64,000 nucleotides of DNA from positions 328,853 through 392,852 of the forward strand of contig CAWATZ010000006.1 of NCBI GenBank assembly GCA_963784995.1, given 5' to 3'. Positions 1 through 30,826 of this stretch are shown here, piece by piece. The notes below the pieces were generated by a model. It was not told where the DNA came from. It worked only from the letters and a program-made list of their open reading frames with translations, and ran no database searches. The stretch is from an uncultured Planctomycetota bacterium. Lineage in GTDB: Bacteria > Planctomycetota > Planctomycetia > Gemmatales > Gemmataceae. Every line of letters starts with the position of its first letter. The stretch's first letter is position 1. A program made the translations under genes and the position numbers.

Positions 1-2769
1 ACGACCGTGTGGACAATGTAGGTGTGCCCGGCCAGCCGGCGCTGCTCCTGCCGGCTGGTCAGTCGATACAGGCAGACCGGGGAATTGCCGCCCGTGCCCC
101 CGCCGGCGGCCAGCCGGCTGCCGTCCGGACTGAAGGCGACCGCCAACACCGGGCCCATCCCCGGGTGGACCACCATCAGCGCCTGGCCCGTCCGGGTTTC
201 CCACAGCCGGACCGTGTCATCGTCGCCGGCGCTGGCCACCAGGCTGCCGTCCGGGCTGAAGGCGACGCAATTGACGCGGGCGGTGTGTCCCAGCAGGGTG
301 ATCGGGTCTTCGCTGCCGATGAGGGGCCACAGCTTGACCGTGTGATCCTCCGAGGCGGAGGCCAGCAGCCCCGCCGAGGGGCTGAAGCACAGCGAGCGAA
401 CGACGCCGCGGTGCCGGCCCAGGGTGACCGGTTCCTTGTCGTCGGCAACCGTGTAGAGCTGGACCGCGTTCTGAGGACCGATGGCCGCCAGCAGGCCGCC
501 GTCGGGACTGAGGGCCACGGGGAAATAAGCAGGAGACCCTGCCCGGGTCTGAATTTCGCGCTTCAGGGCCAGCGAGGCCGGGTCGTGGAGTGAGACTCGC
601 CCATCGCTCCAGGCGACAGTCAGCAGGCTGCCTTTCCGGTCGAACGCCAGGTAGCGCGCGAACGAGGGGAAATTGAGCTGGGCAGGCGCGGCCACCGTCC
701 GGGGGGGCCTCGTGCAGTTTCAGGATCCCGAGGCCGGGAGTCCAGGTGGCATAGGCGAGAGAACGACCATCGGGCCGGAAGCGCACCGCGGGCAACGGCG
801 CCAGGGAATTATGGCGCTGCGCCAGCTTCAGGGCCGGGTCGGCAAGCTCGCGCAGCGACCGGCGCTCTTTCACGTCCCAGACTTGCAGCCGGCCATCGTA
901 GCCGGCCGTCGCCAGGAGTGTACCGTCCGGACTGAAATCGAGCGACCAGAGCGATTGGGTGTGGCCCAGGAACCGCGCTTCTTCGTGGATGTCGAACTCG
1001 CCCAGGCAGGCAATGGCCTCGCTGCGCAGCTGGGCGAGGTCCCGCTGGGGTGTCGGCAGCTGGGCCAGGCTCTGGAGCCGTTGCAGCGCCTGCAAGCGCC
1101 ACCCCGGGACATTGGCCAGGCGCAGCGCCCGGGTCTCGTTCAGCAAGGAATGGTACGTCAGGGCCAGGGCCTCGTCGCGAGTCTTGACGGCCTCGGCACG
1201 GGCGCCTTCTTTCTCGGTGAGTTCGTGGTTGATGCGCTGATGCGACCAGGCGGCCAGGGCCAGCAGCCCGAGCAGGCTCAGCTGCACCGCCGCCAGCAAC
1301 CCCGCCAGCGCCGGGTTGCGCCGGCACCAGCGCCACAGCCGTTCGCGCACGCTGGCACGCCGGGCCCGGATCGGCCGATCCTCGACAAACCGCTTCAGGT
1401 CGTCGGCCAGCTCGGTCGGACTCTGGTAACGCTGGGCCGGATCGCGGGCAATTGCCTTCAGGACAATGGTTTCCAGATCGCGCGGCACGGCCGGGTTGAG
1501 CTTGCGCAGCCGGGGCGGCTCCTCGTGGATCACCTGCTGGATCAGCTTGTTGCGGTCGGTCTCGTCGAAGGCCGGCCGCAGCGTCAGCAGCTCGTACAGG
1601 GTCAACCCCAGGCTGTAGAGGTCGCTGCGGGCGTCGGATTCGCCGTTGAAGCGTTCCGGGGCCATGTAGCGCAGGGTGCCGACAATGTCGCCGGTGTGGG
1701 TCAGATCGTCGTGATCGGCGGCGGCCTTGGCCAGTCCGAAGTCGGTGACCCAGACGGTTCCCTGGGTGTCCAGCAGCAGGTTGGAGGGTTTGATGTCCCG
1801 GTGCTGGATGCCCTGGCCGTGGGCGTAGGCCAGCGCCTCGGCCACCTGCATGCCGATGCGGGCCACGCTCTGGAAATACTGCCGGCTCGAATGGGTGACG
1901 GTCGAATGCTCTGCCTGTCCGGGGAGGTGAATGCCGGACGAACTGTGGCTGGCGGTTGCTGTCTCCCCGGCCTGCCCGGACGGTAGAGGCAGGGGAGCCA
2001 CCCTCTGGGGCTCGGAGCCTTCCACCAGCAGGGGCTCTGCTTCCGTCGGCGTACCAGCGCGGCGATCCGCTGCCGTGAACCGCCCTGTCAGGAGGGCCTG
2101 GGCCACGGCGGATGCTCCCGGCTCTCCAGGAGGGTCAGCTTGCAGCGGTGCGCTTCCCGGAGCGACCGCGGAGCGCGTGATGGTGCTGTTCTGGATCTGT
2201 CGCAAGCGCTTCAATTCGGTCAGGACCTGGTCCAGCCCCTGGCCCTGGATGAACTGCATGATGTAGTAGTGCAAACCCTCATCCGCGCCGACCCCATAGA
2301 CCGGCACGATGTTGGTATGGTGCAGCCGGGCCGCGGCCCGGGCCTCGCGTTGAAAGCGCTGCAGTTGCTTCGGATCGAGCAGGGAGTGCGTCAGCAGCAC
2401 CTTGAGGGCCACGTGCCGGCCCAGGGACACCTGCTCGGCCTCGTAGACAACGCCCATGCCGCCGTGGCCAACTTCGCGGAGGATGCGAAAATCGCCGAGG
2501 CGTTCCAGTTTCTGGGCCCCGGCCGCTGGTTGAAGAGACACCTCCCCATTGCCGCCGTTCGCCTGGAAGGCCCCCGTGATCGCGCCGGGCTCGGGACGGA
2601 GGTCTTCCATCAGGACCAGTGCGGGGAACAGGTCGCGGATCTGCTCGGCCAGCTCCGGATAGCGGCTGGTGTACTCGGTCAACGCGGGACGCTCGCCGCG
2701 GCGGTGGCGTTCCAGGAACTCCTGGGCCAGCTCTTCCACCGGGTTGCGCTCGGAACGGGATGGGCTCAT
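1..2769 (-). CDS. Ser/Thr protein kinase with C-terminal WD40 beta-propeller; continues past the window start; apparent frameshift at G7 run 700-706
   Basis: Kinase motifs HRDIKPSNLLLD, DFGLAKA and LRYMAPE, then a TM segment and WD40 repeats (WSLDFSPDGTLLATAGYDGRLQVWD). The WD40 reading continues in another frame below ~700 (…VAWSDGRVSLHD…GHTARVNCVAFSPDGS…) and runs off the window. The real start is most likely MSPSRSERN at 2769; the ORF-track extension to 2880 translates a repeat element. Confidence 0.8.
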
Positions 2770-2789
2770 GAATCGATTCTCCTGTTGCT

Positions 2790-2919
2790 CGACCCCTGCC
2801 GGCTTGCCCGGCAGGTGAAGCAGGTCAGTAGCTAGAACGGAAGGCGCGCACACGCTTATCTCGCCGCCCTTTCTAGCCATAGACCTCCTTCACCTGCCGG
2901 GCAAGCCGGCAGGGGTCGT
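2790..2919. repeat. Palindromic element PE-1, copy A (~130 bp; 31-bp terminal inverted repeats cgacccctgccggcttgcccggcaggtgaag, each holding an 8-bp hairpin; inner ggctagaaagg…tctagc stem)
   Basis: A near-identical copy lies at 7566-7697. The ends are conserved and the core is variable. It sits ~20 bp upstream of the start codon of the minus-strand kinase gene. Confidence 0.7.
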
Positions 2920-2942
2920 CCAAGGCCTCTCTTGAAGCCGAA

Positions 2943-3577
2943 TCACGACGAACCAAAGCCGGACAAACTGGCCAGGGTATCCTTGAGCCGTTTCAGGGCC
3001 CGGATAAACCCATGGCTGGCCTCGGACGAGCTGATCCCCAGCACGGCCGCGGTTTCGTCGTTGTCGAGCATCTCGAAATGCCGCAGCGTCAGGATCTCGC
3101 GATCCAGGGGATCCATGCCATTGAGGACATCCTGGAGCCGGGTCTGCATCTCCGCGCGCTGGGCCGCCGGACTCGAGGAAGCGACCCGGCCCAGGAGATG
3201 GGCGGCCAGGGAAGCCGAGGACGCCTGCGGCAAGGCGCCCCGGTAGAGAGAAACCTCCTGGCCCGCGTTCTCCACGCGGCCCCGAGATGCTGCCGGTGCA
3301 GGTCCATCAGCTTCTGGCCGGCCAGAGAACGCAGCCAGAGAAAGAACGGCAGCGAACGATCGCGGCTGTATTCCGGCAGCCGTCGTGTCAGGTCATTGTA
3401 GGCTTCCCGCAAGATCTCGGACGGGCTAATGCGGCCTTGCAGCCGGCGATCGAGGCGCAGGCGCACCATCTGCCGCAGGCGCGGCTGGTGTCGCGCGAAG
3501 AGATCGGTCAGGGCCTGGTTGTCGCCAGTGCCGGCCCGGTGCAGCAGATCCGTGGTCACGGCCGAGTCGCTTCTCAT
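2943..3577 (-). CDS. ECF-type sigma-70 factor (apparent frameshift near 3275-3290)
   Basis: The N-terminal ORF (3089-3577) has sigma region 2 (LTDLFARHQPRLRQMVRLRL…EILREAY). The C-terminal ORF (2943-3275) has region 4 (LDREILTLRHFEMLDNDETAAVLGIS…RALKRLKD). The two ORFs overlap in different frames. Confidence 0.7.
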
Positions 3578-3733
3578 GGTTGCCTCCTTTCCCGGAGGGC
3601 CAGGGCCGGAAGGATTTCACCGGTGGACATGGGCTATCCTCGGTTGCGGACAGGGTTCTGGAACAGCCCCCATGTTACGCCAGGGCCAACCCAGAAGCAA
3701 GAATCACGTTGGTGCTGGGCCATTCCGCTCTCA

Positions 3734-3852
3734 GAGCGTTCGGAAGAAATGGCGAGCGGCGCGGCGTCAGCCCGCCGGTAGCGGCCGCACCAGGACCGGC
3801 GGGCTGACGCCGCGCCGCTCGCCAGGCCTCGCGCCGTTTCTTCCGAACGCTC
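3734..3852. repeat. Long GC-rich hairpin element PE-2, copy A (core ggcgagcggcgcggcgtNagcccgccgg / ccggcgggctNacgccgcgccgctcgcc, with extended arms and a 12-nt bulge)
   Basis: The inverted repeat was read directly; a homologous copy is at 30746-30826. It lies between the ECF sigma start and the cheA-like 3' end. Confidence 0.6.
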
Positions 3853-3877
3853 TCAAGTCCAAGGTCTGCTCATCCAT

Positions 3878-6752
3878 TCAGGTCAGCAACCGCCGCACCG
3901 CGCCGAGGAAGCGGTCGCGGTCCAGCTTGACCTCGTAGCTGCTGAAGCCGCACTCCAGCGCCCGGGCCTGGTCGGCCGGGCTGCTCAGCGTGGTCAGGGC
4001 CAGCAGCGGCACGTTCCGCAACCCCGGCCGCTGCCGCACCGCCCGGGCAAAGTTCCAGCCGTTCATCTCCGGCATCTCGATGTCCGAGACGATCAGGTCG
4101 AACTGTTCCTGCTCCAGGACCTCCAGACCCCGGGCCCCGTTCACCGCGGTCACGACCTCGTAGCCTTGCCCTTCCAGGTAGCCCTTGACCAGCAGCCGGA
4201 AGAACTGCGTGTCCTCCACCAGCAGCACGCGCCGCTTCTTCCCCGGTTGCGGCCGGGCCGCGGGGCCCCCTTCCAGCAGGTCCACCAGGCGGAAGATGTC
4301 CAGCACCAGGGTCAGCCGGCCGTGAACGTGAGCCGAGCCGAGGACGCCGTCCTCCTGACAGGTTTCGGTGTCCAGCTGCGTCGAGAGCGTGGCCGTGTCC
4401 AGCAGGCGTGTCATCAGCAGGGCCACCGGTCTCTGCACGTTGCGCGGCAGCAGCAGATACATTTGCGACATTTCCGGAGCCGGCGAGACGGGCAGGAGCT
4501 TGTCTAGCCGCAAGACACGCATCGAGACGCCGTCGATGGTCACGAACTCCCGGTCGCCGATCCGTTCCAGCCGGCTGCTCGGCAGCAGCACCACCCGGCG
4601 GATCATCGGCAGGGCCATCGCGAACTGCTCGCGCTCGCCGTACTGGAACAGCAGCACCGATTGGGCGTCGCGCTCGCCCAGCTCCTCGATTTGGCCCGGC
4701 TTTTCCAGCGGCAGATCAAAGGACACACCCGCATGCTGAGCCACGCCTTCCAGATCGAGGATCAGGGCCACCCGGCCGTCGCCCATGATGGTCGCCCCGG
4801 AGTAGCAGCGCAGGGCTTTCATGGTGGACTGCATCGGCTTGACGACCACTTCCTCGGTGTTGAGGATGCGATCGACGATCAAGCCGTAGCGCGACCTGCC
4901 CGCCCGGACCACGGCGAAGAACACCGGCCCGCCTCCGGACGCCTTCTCCTTCCCCCGCAAGCGGTATTGCTCGACAATCGCAGATTTGTCCGCGGCGGTG
5001 AACGGCCGACGGCGAGCAAGCACCTCGCTCAGACGCACCAGGGGCAGCAGCCGCTGACGCAGCCGATACACTTCCTGGTCGAAAGCACATTCAATCTGGT
5101 TGCCGCCCTGGCCGGGAAAGATACAAACCAGCTCCTCCAGGTCTTTTTGCGGGATGGCGAAGCGGTCCTCGCCCACGGCCACCAGCAGGCAGGGGATGAT
5201 GGCCACGGTCAGCGGCAGCCGCAGCGAGAAGGTGCTGCCCTCGCCGGGCACGGAGTCGATCTCCAGGGCCCCGCCCAGCTTGTCCACGTTGGTCTGAACC
5301 ACGTCCATGCCGACGCCGCGGCCCGAGATGTCGGTGACGCGCTCGGCGGTGGTAAATCCTGGGAGCAGAATCAGCCCCATGATCTCACGCGGACCCATCG
5401 CCGCCAGCTCCTGCGCCGACTTGACGCCCAGCTGCAGGGCCTTGCGCTTGATTCTGTCCACGTCGATGCCGCGGCCGTCGTCGTGGATGGTCACGTGGAT
5501 CTGGCTGCCCTCGTGCCGGGCCCGCACGGTGATCGTGCCCGTTTCCGGCTTGCCGGCCTGCTGGCGCTCGGCGGGCGTCTCGATGCCATGATCGCAGCAG
5601 TTGCGGACCAGGTGCGTCAGCGGATCGGACAGCATCTCCAGGATGCTCTTGTCCAGCTCGACCTCCTGCCCCTCGATGACCAGGTCAGCCCGCTTGCCCA
5701 GTCCCCGGGCCAGGTCGCGGACCAGGCGCGGGAACTTGTTGAAGAGATTGCCGACCGGCTGCATCCGCGTCCGCATCACCGCGTCCTGCAGTTCGGACGT
5801 GACCGCGTTGAGCCGCTGCACGATGCGGCGCACGCCTGGGTCGGCCGGGTCGATGGCCAGCAGGGCCTGGTTGCGGACCAGCACCAGCTCGCCGGCCAGG
5901 GTCATCAGTCGATCCAGCAGGCCCACGTTGATGCGCAAGGTGTTGACCCGCTCATCCTTGCGTGCCGGCTCGCCTGCTGCGGGGCCGACAAGGGCATGTT
6001 CGGGCTCCAACGAGCCGGAAGCGTCAGCGACGGGGAATGAGGAACCGTCGCTGACGCTTCCGGCTCGTTGCAGCGTCACCTGGGCGGTCGAGAGGCCGAG
6101 CGCCGAGCAGAGCTGTTCCGGCTCCAGATGGCTGCTGTAGGTGGCCAGATACCAGATAGGGCCGGTGGGCAATCCCTTCCGCAGATCGGCCCCGGGTACG
6201 TCCAGGCGAGCCTCGACAATGGTGCCGAAGGCGAGCAGGCTCTTGACCAGGGCTAGCGGGCTGTTCCTGCCGATCCCGGCAATACTCGACCAGGTCGATC
6301 CGGAGGGAGTACGTCCGGCGCTCCGGCTGGCTGGAGTGCGGAAGCAGGGCACCGGAGGTCAGCTGGGCCAGGGCGCCCGAAACCTGCCGCTGCAAGCGGT
6401 CGCGGACGATCGTGACATCCACCTGGTTGCTGCGTTCGACGTCGTCCAGAAGGGTGAGGATCAGGTCGGTGCCGGCCAGCAGGGCGTCGAGCTGGCTCTC
6501 GTCGGGCCGGGCGTTCTGCTCCCGCAGGCGCTTGAGCAGGGTCTCCATCAGGTGGGCCAGTTCGGTGACGTTGTGAAAGGCAAAGAAGCCGGCGCCGCCC
6601 TTGACCGAGTGCATGGCCCGGAACAGCCGATCGATCCGATAGCGGACCGCCACGTCGGGGGCCTTTTCCAGGGCGAGCAGGTCATCGGTGACGTTGGCCA
6701 GGTGCTCCTTGGCCTCGCTGACGAACTCGAAGATCATGGTGCGTTCGGCCAT
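3878..6752 (-). CDS. cheA: CheA-like histidine kinase with C-terminal receiver domain (Hpt-HATPase-CheW-REC hybrid); apparent frameshift ~6250-6330
   Basis: ORF 6024-6752 is an Hpt/P1 domain (RAMHSVKGGAGFF). ORF 3878-6352 carries HATPase_c (HLVRNCCDHGIE…GRGVGMDVV), a CheW-like region and a C-terminal REC (VLLVEDTQFFR…DIEMPEMNG). The two ORFs are contiguous but in different frames. Confidence 0.75.
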
Positions 6753-6754
6753 GA

Positions 6755-7549
6755 TCAGCTCCCGGTCCGTTTCAGTGCGTACTGTCTCTCCAGCCCTGTT
6801 GCCTGGAACAGGGTTGCCAGGTCAGGCCCGACGTTGACCAGTTCCAGGGCGGTTTCTTCTCCCGGTCCGCTCGCCGTGCGGGCAAACAGCTCCAGCAGGG
6901 CCAGCCCCCCGACGTCGATTTCGCGCGTAGCACCCATGTCCAGCCGGAAACTCCGGCCGCCGCTGTCCAGCTGTTCAAGCAGCGTCAAACGCACTTGCTC
7001 CGCCGTACTGTTGTCGAGATGAGGGGGAATGCCGATCGTGCGGGAGAGACCGTCCACGACAACGGCGATGGCCGAGGTCCGCGATCGGGTTGGCTCGGCA
7101 GGAGCTTCAGCTTCCGGAGAGTGTGCTGGTTTCTTCGCCGAGCGCGGCTTGCTCTGGCGGATCGAACCGATCTCCTGAATCAGCTTTTCCAGGGAGGCCG
7201 GCTCAGGCGGGGTCTGACCAGGCCCGGCAATCCGGGTGAGGGCATCGACGCCGCGGAGCAAGACGTCGATGGCCTCGCTGCTCAGGGTCAGCTGGCCATT
7301 CTGAGCAGCCACGAGGCAGTCTTCCATGACGTGGGCCACCCGGACGCCGTCCTCGACGCCGACGATCCGGGCCGCCCCCTTGATGGAGTGGGCGGCACGC
7401 ATCAGCGCCTCGATCAGCTTGAGCTGGCCCGGCTCCTTCTCCAGGGCCAGCAGGCCCTCGCTGAGCGTTTGCGTATGGGTCTCGACCTCGGCCCGGAACA
7501 GGTCGAGCATGGCATTGTCACTGAAGTCCTGTGCGTTGCTGGCGGCCAT
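6755..7549 (-). CDS. Hpt-STAS fusion protein (His phosphotransfer domain plus anti-sigma-antagonist-like STAS domain)
   Basis: The N-terminus has an Hpt motif (RAAHSIKGAARIVG). The C-terminus is STAS-like (SFRLDMGATREIDVGGLALLELF…LELVNVGPDLATLF). Its stop lies within 3 nt of the cheA-like start, so the two genes form an operon. Confidence 0.7.
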   Translation of the reverse strand: MAASNAQDFSDNAMLDLFRAEVETHTQTLSEGLLALEKEPGQLKLIEALMRAAHSIKGAARIVGVEDGVRVAHVMEDCLVAAQNGQLTLSSEAIDVLLRGVDALTRIAGPGQTPPEPASLEKLIQEIGSIRQSKPRSAKKPAHSPEAEAPAEPTRSRTSAIAVVVDGLSRTIGIPPHLDNSTAEQVRLTLLEQLDSGGRSFRLDMGATREIDVGGLALLELFARTASGPGEETALELVNVGPDLATLFQATGLERQYALKRTGS

Positions 7550-7565
7550 GATCGACTCCCGTTTC

Positions 7566-7697
7566 CGACCCCTGCCGGCTTGCCCGGCAGGTGAAGAAGG
7601 TCACAGGCTAGACAAAGACGAGGGAAAATGCGCTTCGGCGCTTTGCCTTTCTAGCCAGCGACCTCCTTCACCTGCCGGGCAAGCCGGCAGGGGTCGC
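7566..7697. repeat. Palindromic element PE-1, copy B
   Basis: Same 31-bp terminal inverted repeats and inner ggctagaaagg/tctagcc stem as 2790-2919. It is 17 bp upstream of the Hpt-STAS start codon. Confidence 0.7.
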
Positions 7698-9446: not shown

Positions 9447-12400
9447 TTACTTCCCGCCAACCCGTGCCACGTCATGGGCGTTCGCATCGAATGCCGCCAT
9501 CACCGCTTCCTCTTCCGACAGACCCAGCTGCTTGAATTTCAACTGCGTTTCAATCACGCGCCGGTAGTCGTTGGGGTAAACCTTGACAAACCGCGGCACC
9601 ATTGTCCTCCACGCCCCCAGCACCTGCCAGGCCCACTCGCTGCGCGTGTACTCGGCGTGCTTGAGGATCATCTGCCGGACCAACTCGATCTCCTCGGCAT
9701 CCTCCAGCTTGAACAGCTTGACCATCTCCTGGTTGCAGTTGCGCGGGAAGTCGCCGGTCTCATCCAGAACGTAGGCGATGCCGCCCGACATGCCCGCCGC
9801 GAAGTTCTTGCCGGTCGGCCCCAGCACAACCACCCGGCCGCCCGTCATGTATTCGCAGCCGTGATCGCCCACCGCCAGGACCACCGCGTTGATGCCGCTG
9901 TTGCGCACGCAGAAGCGCTCGCCGGCCATGCCCCGTACGTACGCCTCGCCGCTGGTGGCTCCGTAAAAGGCGACGTTGCCGATGATCACGTTTTCCGACG
10001 CGACAAACGTCGAGCCCTCCGGCGGCATGACGATGATCTTGCCCCCAGACAGACCCTTACCAACGTAATCGTTGGCGTCGCCTTCGAGCATCAGGGTGAT
10101 GCCCCGGGGCACGAAGGCCCCGAAACTCTGGCCGGCAGAGCCCCGGAAGCGCAGCAGGATTGTGTCCTCCGGCAGACCGGCCGCGCCGAAGCGGCGCGTG
10201 ACCTCGCTGCCCAGCATGGTGCCGACGACCCGGTTGACGTTGCGGATCGGCATGGGCGGCGGGGCCACCCTCGTGCCATTTTCCAGGGCCGGCTTGCACA
10301 TCGGAATCAGCGTGGTGCGGTCCAGCGCCTCGTCCAGGCCGTGGTCCTGTTTGTCCTTGCAATACCACACACGGTTGGCCGCCTCTTCCGGCTGGTGGAA
10401 GATCGGCGACAGGTCCAGGCCGGAAACCTTGTAGAAGTCGATGGCCTTTGTCGTCTCCAGCACCTCGCTGTGCCCCACCATCTCCTCGAGCTTGCGGAAA
10501 CCCAACTGGGCCATCCATTCGCGGACTTCCTCGGCGATGAAGCGCATGAAGTTGACCACGTGCTGCGGGTCGCCGGTGAACTTCTTGCGCAGCTCCGGGT
10601 CCTGGGTGGCCACGCCGACCGGGCAGGTGTTCAGATGGCAGACGCGCATCATCACGCAGCCCAGCGACACCAGCGGCGCGGTGGCGAAGCCAAACTCCTC
10701 GGCCCCGAGCAGGGCCCCGATGACCACGTCCCGGCCGGTCTTGAGCTGGCCGTCCACCTCGACGACAATCCGGCTGCGCAGGTCGTTGAGCAGCAGCGTT
10801 TGCTGGGTCTCGGCCAGGCCCAGCTCCCAGGGAGCGCCGGCGTGCTTGATGCTGGTCAGCGGGCTGGCGCCCGTGCCGCCGTCGTGGCCGCTGATCAGCA
10901 CCACGTCGGCGTGGGCCTTGGAGACGCCGGCGGCGATGGTGCCGACGCCGACCTCGGCCACCAGCTTGACACTGATCCGGGCTTGCGGATTGGCGTTCTT
11001 CAGATCGTGGATCAGCTCTTTCAGGTCCTCGATGCTGTAGATGTCGTGGTGCGGCGGCGGCGAGATCAGCCCGACGCCCGGCGTCGAATACCTGACCTTG
11101 GCGATCCAGGGATAGACCTTGCTGCCGGGCAGCTGGCCGCCCTCTCCCGGCTTGGCTCCCTGGGCCATCTTGATTTGCAGCTCTCTGGCCATGACCAGGT
11201 ATTCGCTGGTGACGCCAAAGCGTCCGGAGGCCACCTGCTTGATTGCGCTGTTCTTCGAGTCGCCGTGCTCGTTGGTCCAGCGATAGCGTTCGGGATCTTC
11301 GCCGCCCTCGCCGGTGTTGCTCTTGCCGCCGATGCGGTTCATGGCGATGGCCAGCGTCTCGTGTGCCTCCTTGCTGATCGAGCCGTAGGACATGGCGCCC
11401 GATTTGAACCGGCGCATGATCGATTCGACCGGCTCCACTTCCTCGATGGGGATGGGCTGCCGGATCGATTTGAACTCGAACAGACCGCGCAGGGTGCAGA
11501 GCCGCCTGGCCTGGTTGTTGACCAGACTGCTGTATTCCTTGAACACCTTGTAGTTGCCGGTTCGGCAGGCGTACTGGAGCTTGTGGATCGTCTCGGGATT
11601 GAAGAGGTGATACTCTCCCTCGCGCCGGTACTGGTAGTGGCCGCCGGCATCGAGGGTCCGGCCGGTGCCGGTTCGATCGGAGAAGGCCCGGCCGTGGCGG
11701 GCCAGCACTTCCGCGGCAATCACGTCCAGGCCGACGCCGGAGATCCGCGACGCCGTCCAGGTGAAGTAGCGGTCGATCACGCTCTTGTTCAATCCGACCG
11801 CCTCGAAGATCTGGGCGCCGCAATAGCTCTGGGCGGTCGAGATGCCCATCTTGGACATCACCTTCATGACGCCCTTGCCGAGGGCCTTGACGTATTGCTT
11901 GATCGCCTTGGCGTGGTCCATGCCGTTGAGCGGCATGCTGGCGGAGCAGGTCGTCGAGGGTCTCAAACGCCAGGTAGGGGTTGATGGCCCCGGCCCCGTA
12001 GCCGATCAGCAGCGCGAAGTGATGCACCTCGCGCGGCTCGCCGCTCTCCAGCACCAGGCCGACCTTGGTCCGCGTGCCCTCGCGGATCAGATGGTGATGG
12101 ACGCCGGCCACCGCCAGCAGGGCCGGGATGGGAGCGTGCTCCGCAGTCACCCCGCGATCCGACAGGATGATGAAATCGTGACCGGAAGCGACGGCGGCGC
12201 TGACCTTGCGGAACAGCCCCTCCAGCGCTCGTTCCAGCCCCACGGCCCCGTCCCCGGCCGGGAAGAGGATCGGCAGGGTGATGGTCTTGAAACCGCCCGG
12301 CCCGCTGCCGTCCAGCCGGCGGAGCTTGTCCAGCTCCTCGTTCTTCAGGATGGGCGTATCCAGCTTGATCTGCCGGGCGGACACGGGGGTCGGCTCCAGC

Positions 12401-14061
12401 AGATTGCACTCCGCGCCGATGGTGGTCTCCATCGACATGATGATCTCTTCGCGGATGCAATCGACCGGCGGGTTGGTCACCTGGGCGAACAGCTGCTTGA
12501 AGTAGTTGTACAGCAGCTGCGGCCGATCCGAGAGGACCGCCAGGGCCGCGTCATTGCCCATCGAGCCGACGGCCTCGTTGGCTTCCTGGGCCATCGGCGG
12601 CAGCAGGATCTTCAGGTCCTCGGTGGTGTAGCCGAACACCTGCTGGCGCAGCAGCACCGTTTCGTGGTCCGGTTCGTGGAACCTCGGCCCCACGGGCAGG
12701 TCGTCCAGGGAAACGAGGTTGTCGCGCACCCAGTCCGCGTAGGGCAGGGCCTGGGCCATTTGCTGTTTCAGCTCCTCGTCGGCGATGATCCGGCCCTGCT
12801 CCAGATCGACCAGGAACATCCGGCCCGGCTGCAGCCGGCCCTTGTGCAGCACCCGCTCCGGCGGAATGTCGAGGACGCCGACTTCGGACGCCATGATCAC
12901 CAGGTCGTCCTTGGTGACGTAGTAGCGCGACGGCCGCAGGCCGTTGCGGTCCAGCACGGCGCCGATGCGGACGCCATCGGTGAAGGCGATCGACGCCGGT
13001 CCGTCCCACGGCTCCATCAGGCAGGCGTGATACTCGTAGAAGGCCCGCTTGGCCGGGCTCATGGTCCTGTCGCCGCTCCACGGCTCCGGGATCATCATCA
13101 TGACCGCGTGCGGCAGCGACCGGCCGGCCAGCACCAGCAGTTCCAGGGCATTGTCGAACTTGGCCGAATCGCTGCCGCTCTCGTCGATGATCGGCAGCAG
13201 CTTCTCGACGTCCGGCCCGAACAGCTCGGAGCGGAACATCCGCTCCCGGGCGTGCATCCAGTTGACGTTGCCGCGCAGCGTGTTGATCTCGCCGTTGTGG
13301 CACAGGTAGCGGTAGGGATGGGCCCGGGCCCAGGTCGGGAAGGTGTTGGTGCTGAAGCGCGAATGGACCAGCGCCAGGGCCGAGTCCATCGCCGGATCTT
13401 TCAGGTCGGGGAAGTAATGCTCCAGCTGCGGGGCGTTGAGCATGCCCTTGTAAATCAGTGTCTTGCTGGACAGGCTCGGCAGGTAGAACATCCCGCGCTG
13501 TTCCAGGCCCGACTCCCGAGCAGCCTTCTCCATGCGCTTGCGGATGACGTACAGCCGGCGCTCGAACGCCAATTCATCGCCTGGAAGACAGCCCTCCCGA
13601 CCAATGAAAACCTGCCGCATCGCCGGCTCGCCCCGTTTGGCAGTGGGGCCGATGTCGGTGTTATCGGTAGGCACGTCCCGCCAGCCCAGGACGGTCTGTC
13701 CCTCCTCGCGGACGATCTGCTCGAAGGTCTCCTCCACAGTCCGGCGCTGCACCGGGTCGGTGGGCAGGAAGACCAGACCCGCACCATAGGCTCCGGGACC
13801 GGGAAGGCGAATCCCCAACTGATCGCATTCCCGCTGCAAGAAGCGATGGGGCATCTGCAAGAGAATGCCGGCCCCGTCTCCGGTGTTCTTCTCGCAGCCG
13901 CACGCGCCGCGATGCTCCAGGTGTACCAGGATCTGGATCGCTTTGCGGACAATGTCGTGCGACCGGCGGGCTTTCAGATCGACGACAAAGCCGACGCCGC
14001 AGGAATCGTGTTCGTTCTGCGGGTCATACAAACCTTGCCGGGAAGGAACCGCCTCCGTCAT
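9447..14061 (-). CDS. gltB: Glutamate synthase large subunit (apparent frameshift ~11955)
   Basis: The N-terminal ORF (10057-14061) has the class-II amidotransferase start [27 protein letters not shown]. The C-terminal ORF (9447-11966) has the FMN and GXGXG domains (…[12 protein letters not shown]…). Together they make one ~1530-aa GltB. Confidence 0.9.
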
Positions 14062-30745: not shown

Positions 30746-30826
30746 GGCGAGCGGCGCGGCGTAAGCCCGCCGGTAAAGACTGCCGATACCGGCGGGCTCA
30801 CGCCGCGCCGCTCGCCGCGCCGTTCC
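30746..30826. repeat. GC-rich hairpin element PE-2, copy B
   Basis: ggcgagcggcgcggcgtaagcccgccgg…ccggcgggctcacgccgcgccgctcgcc; homologous to 3751-3832, including the shared downstream gcgccgtt…ctcaag flank. Confidence 0.55.

What the first reader, a model, noticed from the sequence alone, without database searches (positions are those of the whole stretch)
3878..7549. Hpt-STAS fusion co-transcribed with a CheA-REC hybrid kinase: possible phosphorelay-to-partner-switch coupling
The 264-aa protein at 6755-7549 joins a histidine phosphotransfer domain (HSIKG) to an anti-sigma-antagonist-type STAS domain. The STAS domain has Gly at the usual phosphoserine position (EIDVGGLALL). Its stop abuts the start of a CheA-like kinase that has its own Hpt and a C-terminal receiver, with no cheW, cheY or MCP nearby. 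A His-Asp-His relay ending on a STAS output domain would link chemotaxis-type signalling to partner-switching control. The neighbouring ECF sigma factor and Ser/Thr kinase at 1-3577 are possible targets. I am not aware of an Hpt-STAS architecture as a characterised module.
Basis: partly seen in the sequence, partly recalled or inferred. Interest (0 to 1): 0.6.

Follow-up and report, generated by a model that had tools for sequence, protein, structure and literature searches.

The report
Detached CheA phosphotransfer domain fused to STAS
A small protein that joins a chemotaxis-kinase phosphotransfer domain to a non-phosphorylatable STAS protein-binding domain is real and always sits just ahead of a CheA-receiver hybrid kinase in planctomycete bacteria; it is an uncharacterised variant of a known signalling design rather than a new kind of system.

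Summary
ORF 6755-7549(-) encodes a 264-aa protein with a CheA-type P1/Hpt domain (His54 plus the CheA catalytic set Lys57, His73, Glu76), a disordered linker and a STAS domain closest in fold to SpoIIAA and RsbV. The SpoIIAA Ser58 position is Val213, with Gly214 next to it, and it is never Ser or Thr in the family.

Its stop lies 2 nt before the start of a CheA-REC hybrid kinase. The cheA "frameshift" is a CCC/CC homopolymer problem at 6258-6260. Removing one C gives an intact 957-aa protein, 86% identical to an intact relative, with dN/dS about 0.19. The ECF sigma gene and gltB nearby are also frameshifted, so the assembly is error-prone.

Hpt-STAS is a conserved, unnamed family, seen full-length only in Planctomycetota. 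In all 18 related loci it precedes CheA-REC. In most loci cheW-MCP-cheB-cheR follow, and in Pirellula-type loci a REC-PP2C phosphatase is adjacent. The window keeps only the two-gene core. The ECF sigma and Ser/Thr kinase are not conserved neighbours.

Most likely it is a trans-acting second P1 domain of a Wsp-like kinase, with the STAS domain docking or acting on a downstream partner. Classical Ser-phosphorylation partner switching is excluded. I rate it a new variant of a known kind, of moderate interest.

The parts
6755..7549 (-). hpt-STAS gene (264 aa): P1 domain, linker, STAS domain
   Evidence: Pfam finds Hpt, STAS_2 and STAS. AF2 mean pLDDT is 91. The N-terminus matches homologues. dN/dS is 0.19 against L084.
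7160..7543 (-). CheA-type P1 (Hpt) domain, aa 3-130. Phospho-acceptor His54 is at codon 7388-7390. Lys57, His73 and Glu76 correspond to E. coli CheA K51, H67 and E70.
   Evidence: H54, K57 and E76 are invariant and H73 is at least 90% conserved in 103 sequences. Residue-by-residue alignment to T. maritima and E. coli CheA P1. The PDB profile hits only CheA P1 domains.
7064..7159 (-). Pro/Ala-rich flexible linker, aa 131-162
   Evidence: pLDDT is 54-66. Length and sequence vary among homologues.
6767..7063 (-). STAS domain, aa 163-261. The SpoIIAA-Ser58-equivalent is Val213 (codon 6911-6913).
   Evidence: Foldseek matches SpoIIAA and RsbV at TM 0.78-0.85. hmmsearch alignment to SpoIIAA. Family residues at this site are P47/A38/V15 of 108.
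3878..6752 (-). cheA-REC hybrid kinase gene, 957 aa once one C is removed from the CCC run. Domains: P1b 6462-6728, dimerisation 5771-5944, HATPase 5207-5629, CheW 4733-5191, second CheW-like 4286-4672, REC 3926-4228.
   Evidence: It is 84-86% identical to the intact 957-aa CheA of L084.
6258..6260 (-). CCC homopolymer where the cheA reading frame breaks (apparent frameshift)
   Evidence: L084 CheA aligns over residues 1-166 up to 6258 and over 166-956 from 6259 in another frame. The independent Logan contig L001 has CC here. Deleting one C gives an ORF with no internal stop.
7566..7696 (.). Palindromic intergenic element (47-nt arms) between gltD and hpt-STAS. It bounds the operon upstream.
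   Evidence: the repeat finder reports 94% complementary arms. A second copy lies at about 2791-2918.
3733..3853 (.). GC-rich hairpin (30-nt perfect arms inside 34-nt 85%-complementary outer arms) just after the cheA stop. It is the likely operon end.
   Evidence: the repeat finder; sequence.

Best explanation
The 264-aa protein is a detached, second CheA-type P1 phosphotransfer domain. A flexible linker tethers it to a STAS domain that cannot be phosphorylated at the usual serine. It is the conserved first gene, translationally coupled, of a Wsp-like (alternative-cellular-function type) chemosensory operon of Planctomycetota. Its partner is a hybrid CheA with its own P1, two CheW-like domains and a C-terminal receiver, and no P2 domain.

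Proposed mechanism: the CheA kinase domain phosphorylates His54 of Hpt-STAS in trans. The same happens with liberated P1 domains and with multi-Hpt CheAs. The STAS domain acts as the protein-binding module, playing the role P2 plays in classical CheA or CheS plays in rhizobia. It brings P1~P to a downstream partner or changes partner binding. In Pirellula-type relatives the obvious partner is the adjacent REC-PP2C phosphatase. In this genome the partner is unlinked and unknown.

Shown: domain identities, catalytic residues, loss of the phosphoserine, conserved gene pairing, purifying selection, and the operon context in relatives.

Inferred: trans-phosphorylation by CheA, the docking or output role of STAS, and the identity of the partner.

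The cheA frameshift is an assembly error.
For: - The Hpt domain is of the CheA P1 type. H54, K57 and E76 are invariant and H73 is at least 90% conserved. They align with E. coli CheA H48, K51, H67 and E70. The PDB profile hits only CheA P1 domains, at E=1e-18 to 1e-9.
- This P1 is 57-66% identical to the P1 of WspE-type kinases from four phyla. CheA's own P1 is only 28-35% identical to them.
- In all 18 related loci, Hpt-STAS is followed by CheA-REC, with gaps of -4 to +6 nt in most.
- dN/dS is 0.19-0.27 for both genes.
- The layout of P1, disordered linker and alpha/beta domain mirrors CheA P1-P2. The top Foldseek hit is the P1-P2 structure 2lp4.
- The STAS phosphosite is never Ser or Thr in Hpt-fused members (0 of 18). 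It is Ser or Thr in 27 of 58 of the nearest non-Hpt STAS domains.
- REC-PP2C is adjacent in 8 of 18 loci, and Hpt-STAS carries the only STAS domain nearby.
- Published context: separately encoded Hpt genes in cheA operons are regarded as bipartite CheAs, liberated P1 is functional, and over 90% of multi-Hpt CheAs carry a C-terminal receiver and mostly lack P2 (PMC10782961). The STAS-only protein CheS binds CheA and modulates CheY binding (PMC12654446).
Against: - No biochemical data exist for any member.
- CheA keeps its own apparently competent P1, so a second P1 is not strictly needed.
- In this window and its closest relatives no REC-PP2C, cheW or MCP is linked. The partner is therefore unknown, and the two-gene module may work differently from the full operons.
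- STAS has no demonstrated receiver-docking function outside CheS.
- Phosphorylation of His54 by back-transfer from the CheA receiver cannot be excluded from sequence.
Confidence: 0.55

Rival explanations
1. A His-Asp-His relay runs from CheA P1 to the CheA receiver to His54 of Hpt-STAS. The STAS domain is the output, and its binding to an anti-sigma factor or kinase partner is switched by the phosphorylation state of the fused Hpt. This would be a partner switch driven by His~P instead of Ser~P. The ECF sigma and Ser/Thr kinase next door could be the targets.
For: - Hybrid kinases with a receiver commonly pass phosphate on to an Hpt.
- The STAS domain is closer to SpoIIAA, RsbV and TM1442 (E=2.5e-8 to 2e-6) than to MlaB (E=1e-3).
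- Its nearest STAS relatives include 13 RsbW-like kinase-STAS fusions.
- Isosphaerales-type operons contain no separate output regulator, so Hpt-STAS is the only non-core gene.
- Loss of Ser is consistent with another switch replacing it.
- Che clusters linked to partner switches are known, for example the S. oneidensis che1 locus with CrsR/CrsA and F7 stage-1 clusters.
- A Ser/Thr kinase lies directly downstream in the window, L082 and L006.
Against: - The Hpt has the full CheA P1 catalytic set, so it can be a direct kinase substrate.
- No anti-sigma factor or RsbW-like gene is conserved near any locus.
- The ECF sigma and Ser/Thr kinase are absent from the closest relatives L083 and L084, and a hairpin separates them from cheA.
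- From my own knowledge, not checked here: ECF sigma plus Ser/Thr kinase pairs are a self-contained module common in Planctomycetes.
Confidence: 0.2
2. Hpt-STAS is an internal modulator of the kinase rather than a pathway branch. The STAS domain binds CheA-REC itself, as CheS does. The extra P1 acts as a phosphate buffer or sink that tunes flux to the CheA receiver and CheB, with no separate downstream target.
For: - The two-gene module persists alone, under purifying selection, in the window clade.
- Translational coupling suggests a stoichiometric complex.
- CheS gives a precedent for STAS binding CheA.
- Multi-Hpt CheAs with reversible Hpt-receiver transfer are known (PMC10782961).
Against: - It does not explain the recurrent adjacency of REC-PP2C.
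- It does not explain why an operon without any output regulator would exist.
Confidence: 0.17
3. The locus is a decaying remnant. cheW, MCP, cheB and cheR have been lost, cheA is a frameshifted pseudogene, and Hpt-STAS is no longer functional.
For: - The window sequence has a frameshift in cheA.
- The accessory che genes present in relatives are missing from the whole 64-kb window.
Against: - The frame break is at a CCC homopolymer, and another assembly shows CC there.
- The ECF sigma gene and gltB (an essential-type gene) are also frameshifted within 14 kb, which points to sequencing error.
- The repaired CheA has no stops, intact N, G1, F and G2 boxes and the receiver Asp by inspection of the sequence. 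dN/dS is 0.19.
- Relatives L083 and L084 have the same two-gene layout with intact 957-aa CheA.
Confidence: 0.05

Closest known systems
Bipartite and multi-Hpt CheA kinases of the ACF and Tfp classes (WspE, ChpA; R. sphaeroides CheA3/CheA4; separately encoded Hpt genes noted by Berry et al. 2023, PMC10782961)
   Same: - A CheA-type P1 domain is encoded as its own gene in the cheA operon.
- The kinase has a C-terminal receiver and no P2.
- The system has more than one Hpt.
- The detached P1 is 57-66% identical to WspE-type P1.
   Different: - Here CheA keeps its own P1, so the system is not simply split.
- The detached P1 carries a STAS domain. The survey of 13,673 CheAs does not mention STAS.
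P. aeruginosa HptB-HsbR-HsbA pathway, and S. oneidensis CrsR/CrsA encoded in the che1 locus
   Same: It shares Hpt, STAS and (in relatives) a REC-PP2C phosphatase, and so connects His-Asp signalling to STAS-type modules. In Shewanella the link is to a Che cluster.
   Different: - Hpt and STAS are fused here.
- The STAS domain lacks the phosphoserine (HsbA Ser56).
- The REC-PP2C of relatives has no kinase or anti-sigma domain.
- The Hpt is of CheA P1 type, not an HptB-type stand-alone Hpt.
- No such phosphatase lies in this window.
CheS of Sinorhizobium meliloti and Agrobacterium fabrum
   Same: A STAS domain encoded in a che operon that binds CheA and affects receiver (CheY) interaction (PMC12654446).
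   Different: CheS is a STAS-only protein in a flagellar chemotaxis system. Here STAS is fused to P1 in a Wsp-like system. CheA binding is not shown here.
Anti-sigma-factor antagonists SpoIIAA and RsbV
   Same: Same fold (TM 0.78-0.85, rmsd about 2 A) and the generic STAS motifs.
   Different: - Val, Pro or Ala at the phosphoserine position.
- No cognate kinase or anti-sigma factor nearby.
- Fused to P1.
P. aeruginosa Wsp system
   Same: A hybrid CheA-REC, and in relatives an MCP, CheW, CheB and CheR. JGI names the Hpt-STAS protein itself WspE or CheA.
   Different: - Gene order differs.
- There is one cheW.
- There is no REC-GGDEF output. Some relatives have REC-PP2C instead.
- Only the kinase and Hpt-STAS are present in this window.

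Membership tests
CheA P1 / Hpt domain (PF01627) | Helical-bundle fold and a profile match above the curated cut-off | tested here: met
   59.5 bits against a cut-off of 24.6. Five helices at pLDDT above 90. TM 0.84 to 1i5n.
CheA P1 / Hpt domain (PF01627) | Phospho-acceptor His in HS(I/V)KG plus the CheA-specific Lys, His and Glu (E. coli H48, K51, H67, E70) | tested here: met
   H54, K57, H73 and E76 have identical spacing. They are invariant or at least 90% conserved in the family.
STAS domain (PF01740 / PF13466) | STAS alpha/beta fold and a profile match above the cut-off | tested here: met
   32.5 bits (cut-off 29.2) and 26.4 bits (cut-off 22.6). Foldseek matches SpoIIAA and RsbV.
Partner-switching anti-sigma antagonist (SpoIIAA/RsbV/HsbA type) | Phosphorylatable Ser or Thr at the SpoIIAA Ser58 position | tested here: not met
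   Val213 in the window. P, A or V in 100 of 108 family members. 0 of 18 Hpt-fused representatives have Ser or Thr.
Partner-switching anti-sigma antagonist (SpoIIAA/RsbV/HsbA type) | A cognate RsbW/SpoIIAB-like kinase or anti-sigma factor encoded nearby | tested here: not met
   None appears in the Pfam-annotated gene lists of 7 related loci. Nothing was detected in the window flanks. Genes elsewhere in the genome could not be checked.
Partner-switching anti-sigma antagonist (SpoIIAA/RsbV/HsbA type) | An associated PP2C (SpoIIE/RsbU-type) phosphatase | tested here: inconclusive
   REC-PP2C is adjacent in 8 of 18 related loci. It is absent from the window and from its closest relatives within 10 kb.
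Wsp-like / ACF chemosensory system | A hybrid CheA with a C-terminal receiver | tested here: met
   The repaired CheA has Hpt, H-kinase_dim, HATPase_c, two CheW-like domains and REC.
Wsp-like / ACF chemosensory system | MCP, CheW, CheR and CheB in the same cluster | tested here: not met
   Absent from the 64-kb window. Present in 13 of 18 related loci; a 14th, L087, shows cheW and the start of the MCP before its contig ends.
Wsp-like / ACF chemosensory system | Assignment of the CheA core to the ACF class by the Wuichet-Zhulin class models | not testable with these tools
   Only indirect evidence. The core is 34-36% identical to WspE-like kinases. JGI names the Hpt-STAS protein WspE or CheA.
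Wsp-like / ACF chemosensory system | A REC-GGDEF (WspR) output | tested here: not met
   No GGDEF gene is seen in any related locus listing.
Bipartite (split) CheA with separately encoded Hpt | [quoted passage not shown] | tested here: met
   A 2-nt gap in the window. The pairing is conserved in 18 of 18 loci.
Bipartite (split) CheA with separately encoded Hpt | The CheA core lacks its own Hpt | tested here: not met
   CheA retains a P1 with the HS(V/L/I)KG motif and the conserved Glu in all loci.
CheS-like STAS accessory protein | The STAS domain binds CheA and modulates receiver binding | not testable with these tools
   This needs a binding assay or a complex prediction. Only the analogy from PMC12654446 is available.

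The most novel reading that the evidence does not exclude
Hpt-STAS is the output element of a chemosensory pathway. Histidine phosphorylation of the fused P1 domain, instead of serine phosphorylation, gates what the STAS domain binds (a REC-PP2C phosphatase, a kinase or an anti-sigma factor). This would be a His~P-driven partner switch wiring a Che-type array directly to Ser/Thr-phosphorylation or sigma-factor control in Planctomycetota.
Probability: 0.15. Interest if true: 0.75.

Novelty: new variant of a known kind. Interest (0 to 1): 0.42.

Why it matters
Chemosensory arrays that control something other than motility are common, but their outputs are mostly unknown, and Planctomycetota signalling is almost unstudied. 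This family marks a conserved operon with two unusual properties:
- Part of the kinase's phosphotransfer capacity sits on a separate protein with a STAS protein-binding domain.
- In many genomes the operon has no conventional response-regulator output.

If the STAS domain docks or controls a PP2C phosphatase or another partner, it would show how a Che-type array is wired to Ser/Thr-phosphorylation networks. It would also extend the known uses of STAS beyond phosphoserine switches.

For annotation, it shows that "Hpt domain-containing protein" or "WspE" labels on proteins of about 260 aa hide a distinct family. It also shows that surveys restricted to CheA cores miss such accessory P1 proteins.

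Tried and rejected
- Fusion as artefact: rejected. More than 100 independent clusters carry both domains in one ORF.
- Hpt-STAS as the N-terminus of one long CheA with a spurious stop: rejected. All 18 loci have a stop codon, of varied type, and a separate CheA start. A STAS-only search of 1.84 billion representatives found no CheA-length protein.
- A fused Hpt-STAS-Hpt-CheA ancestor in Desulfobacteraceae (L067): the 1124-aa kinase has three Hpt domains but no STAS.
- ECF sigma and Ser/Thr kinase as conserved partners: tblastn finds no ECF sigma in any related locus. Kinases appear only in L006, L082 and L049, with about 30-48% identity in the kinase domain, so they are not clearly orthologous.
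- Search of the window for cheW, MCP, cheB, cheR, REC-PP2C, or extra REC, STAS or Hpt: nothing found.
- Conserved neighbours beyond the operon in Isosphaerales loci: none.
- Promoter and terminator consensus scan: uninformative. It found 0 promoters, and terminator-like sites were at the shuffle level.
- The afdb50 fold library was unavailable, so UniProt-level taxonomy of structural neighbours could not be obtained.
- Literature searches for "Hpt-STAS", for STAS+Hpt+CheA, and for STAS domain + histidine phosphotransfer found no description of this architecture.
- MlaB-type STAS: considered and set aside. Anti-sigma antagonists score 3-5 orders of magnitude better.
Full report
**1. What is in the sequence**

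The window is about 66-69% G+C over the region studied. The ECF sigma next door hits a Planctomycetaceae-specific sigma subfamily.

ORF 6755-7549(-) encodes 264 aa. Pfam gives Hpt at E=3.8e-16 (aa 14-104), STAS_2 at E=1e-7 and STAS at E=6.3e-6 (aa 177-256), all above the curated cut-offs.

An AlphaFold2 model built on 103 homologues has mean pLDDT 91. It shows five helices (aa 3-130), a low-confidence linker (131-162) and an alpha/beta STAS fold (163-261). Foldseek against the PDB returns:
- CheA P1 (1i5n, TM 0.84);
- SpoIIAA (1th8_B, TM 0.78, rmsd 1.8 A);
- RsbV (6m36, TM 0.85);
- as top hit, the two-domain CheA P1-P2 structure 2lp4.

A family profile against PDB sequences hits only CheA P1 domains at the N-terminus (E=1e-18 to 1e-9). 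At the C-terminus it hits anti-sigma antagonists (TM1442 at 2.5e-8, SpoIIAA at 1.8e-7, RsbV at 2e-6) well ahead of MlaB (1e-3).

**2. The Hpt domain is a genuine CheA P1**

His54, Lys57 and Glu76 are invariant and His73 is at least 90% conserved in 103 family members. They align one-to-one with E. coli CheA H48, K51, H67 and E70 and with T. maritima H45, K48, H64 and E67. From my own knowledge, this is the residue set required for phosphorylation by the CheA kinase domain.

This P1 is 57-66% identical to the P1 of WspE-like kinases of Pseudomonas, cyanobacteria, Chthoniobacter and Desulfobacteraceae. CheA's own P1 in the next gene is only 28-35% identical to them.

**3. The STAS domain cannot be phosphorylated at the canonical site**

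In 108 family members this position is Pro 47, Ala 38 or Val 15.

I searched 1.84 billion cluster representatives with the STAS part alone. This gave 76 hits, of which Pfam finds Hpt in 20, an RsbW-like HATPase_c_2 domain in 13 and REC in 6. By the HS(I/V/L/F)KG motif, 18 carry Hpt. None of the 18 has Ser or Thr at the phosphosite, against 27 of the other 58.

Loss of the phosphoserine is therefore a specific property of the Hpt-fused clade. The rest of the conserved pattern (D179, R187, D204, GLAxL, TG) is the generic STAS motif.

**4. The kinase and the frameshift**

The hpt-STAS stop (TGA, 6755-6757) is followed 2 nt later by the ATG of cheA. Both starts have GGGAG about 6 nt upstream.

cheA is split between 6024-6752 and 3878-6352. 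An intact 957-aa CheA-REC from a relative (L084) aligns at 84% identity over residues 1-166 up to 6258 and over residues 166-956 from 6259 in another frame. The break is at a CCC run (6258-6260).

An independent Logan assembly contig (L001, 99.6% identical) has CC there, though it carries a 1-nt deletion of its own nearby. Removing one C gives a 957-aa ORF with no internal stop. Pfam on it finds Hpt 9-97, H-kinase_dim 270-327, HATPase_c 375-515, CheW 521-673, a second CheW-like domain at about 694-822, and REC 842-942. By inspection the kinase boxes and the receiver Asp are intact.

dN/dS against L084 and L083 is 0.19 and 0.27 for cheA, and 0.19 and 0.26 for hpt-STAS.

Two other genes within 14 kb are also split by frameshifts:
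- The ECF sigma gene has region 2 in 3089-3577 and region 4 in 2943-3275.
- gltB has GATase_2 and a truncated central domain in 10057-14061, and GXGXG in 9447-11966.

The assembly is error-prone, and the cheA frameshift is best read as an artefact.

**5. Operon limits**

A 47-nt-arm palindromic element (7566-7696) separates gltD from hpt-STAS. A GC-rich hairpin (3733-3853) follows the cheA stop. The unit in this window is the two genes.

**6. Relatives**

The protein search gave 1028 hits. Most of the top 120 are 215-310 aa with both domains. Sources name them "Hpt domain-containing protein", "WspE", "CheA" or "anti-anti-sigma factor", and the named organisms are Gemmataceae, Isosphaeraceae and Pirellulaceae. 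In one genome per species, full-length matches were found only in Planctomycetota (Singulisphaera, Tautonia, Isosphaeraceae, Pirellula). All other hits were to the P1 of WspE-like kinases.

In 18 related loci:
- Hpt-STAS is always followed by CheA-REC. The gap is -4 to +6 nt in 13 loci; the other five measured -137 (two loci), -7, +27 and +44 nt.
- 13 continue with cheW, an MCP (4HB-HAMP), cheB and cheR; a 14th, L087, shows cheW and the start of the MCP before its contig ends.
- 8, the Pirellula-type loci, have an adjacent REC-SpoIIE/PP2C response regulator without a kinase domain.
- In Isosphaerales-type loci the conserved block is exactly Hpt-STAS to cheR, with no separate output regulator.

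The window's own clade (62-79% identity; L083 and L084) has only the two-gene core with intact CheA and unrelated flanks. L082 retains cheW and the MCP. No cheW, MCP, cheB, cheR, REC-PP2C or further REC, Hpt or STAS is detectable anywhere in the 64-kb window.

**7. Mechanism**

The most economical reading is a Wsp-like chemosensory kinase with two P1 domains, one of which is detached and fused to STAS.

Published surveys support several elements of this. Separately encoded Hpt genes in cheA operons are treated as bipartite kinases, and liberated P1 is functional. [quoted passage not shown] The same survey never mentions STAS (PMC10782961).

I therefore infer two things. First, the CheA kinase domain phosphorylates His54 in trans. 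Second, the STAS domain, tethered as P2 is to P1 in classical CheA, is the protein-binding part.

There is precedent for a STAS protein binding CheA and modulating receiver binding in CheS (PMC12654446). The recurrent REC-PP2C neighbour makes that regulator the best candidate acceptor where it is present.

Chemosensory clusters linked to partner-switch modules are already known:
- F7 stage-1 clusters carry antagonists and a serine phosphatase (PMC7184735).
- The S. oneidensis che1 locus carries CrsR/CrsA (PMC9855816).
- The HptB-HsbR-HsbA pathway uses separate Hpt, REC-PP2C-kinase and STAS(Ser56) proteins (PMC6482189).

The general idea of coupling is therefore not new. The fusion, and the replacement of the phosphoserine, are.

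**8. Rival readings**

It gains some weight from operons with no other output gene. It is not favoured, because the Hpt is a complete P1 and no anti-sigma partner is conserved.
- The ECF sigma and Ser/Thr kinase are not conserved neighbours and sit beyond a hairpin. A kinase directly downstream in three loci (window, L082, L006) is only a weak lead.
- A purely internal modulator or phosphate-sink role is possible.
- A pseudogene remnant is unlikely.

**9. Verdict**

The locus is a member of a widespread but uncharacterised planctomycete family, best described as a new variant of the multi-Hpt/bipartite CheA theme. Interest is moderate. The higher-interest reading, a His~P-gated STAS partner switch acting as the pathway output, is not excluded but has no direct support.

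Noticed in passing
window 7566-7696 and about 2791-2918: A palindromic intergenic element of about 130 bp (47-nt arms, 94% complementary; core CCTGCCGGGCAAGCCGGCAGG, itself a small hairpin) occurs twice. One copy lies between gltD and hpt-STAS. The other lies between the ECF sigma gene and the Ser/Thr kinase gene, where it overlaps the 5' end of ORF 217-2880, so that ORF's true start is probably further downstream. It looks like a REP/MITE-like repeat.
   Followed up: partly
window 3733-3853 and 30758-30804: A GC-rich hairpin with 30-nt perfect arms follows the cheA stop. Its core GGCGTCAGCCCGCCGGT recurs as an inverted pair, with one mismatch per arm, at 30758-30804. This suggests a second family of intergenic palindromes.
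   Followed up: no
window 2943-3577 (-): The ECF sigma gene is split by a frameshift. Region 2 is in ORF 3089-3577. Region 4 (Sigma70_r4_2, E=5.9e-8) is in the overlapping ORF 2943-3275.
   Followed up: partly
window 9447-14061 (-): The glutamate synthase large subunit gene gltB is split near 11.9 kb. GATase_2 and a truncated central domain are in 10057-14061, and the GXGXG domain is in 9447-11966. Together with cheA and the sigma gene, that is three frameshifted genes in 14 kb, typical of an uncorrected long-read assembly.
   Followed up: partly
L006 10933-11868; L082 17367 onward; window 217-2880: A Ser/Thr protein kinase gene (with WD40 repeats in the window and L082) lies directly downstream of the che cluster in three loci from different clades. 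The kinases are only 45-48% identical in the kinase domain, and kinases are abundant in Planctomycetes, so this may be chance.
   Followed up: partly
L067 4243-11610 (Desulfobacteraceae MAG): A Wsp-like cluster with a 1124-aa CheA carrying three Hpt domains. It is followed by cheB, a REC-adenylate/guanylate cyclase and a REC-PP2C regulator, giving two different outputs on one chemosensory kinase.
   Followed up: no
L002-L007 and L075 (Isosphaerales-type loci): Complete six-gene chemosensory operons (Hpt-STAS, CheA-REC, CheW, MCP, CheB, CheR) with no CheY or other output regulator, and no conserved flanking gene.
   Followed up: partly
proteins P0127, P0128, P0143, P0154 and others (about 245-255 aa): Among the nearest STAS relatives, Pfam finds an RsbW-like kinase domain (HATPase_c_2) in 13 members. 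P0163 is confirmed individually as REC-NMT1-HATPase_c_2-STAS. The listed IDs are candidates for a HATPase_c_2-STAS single-chain fusion, judged only by their length and by retaining Ser at the phosphosite; their domains were not resolved one by one. If so, anti-sigma kinase and antagonist sit in one polypeptide.
   Followed up: no
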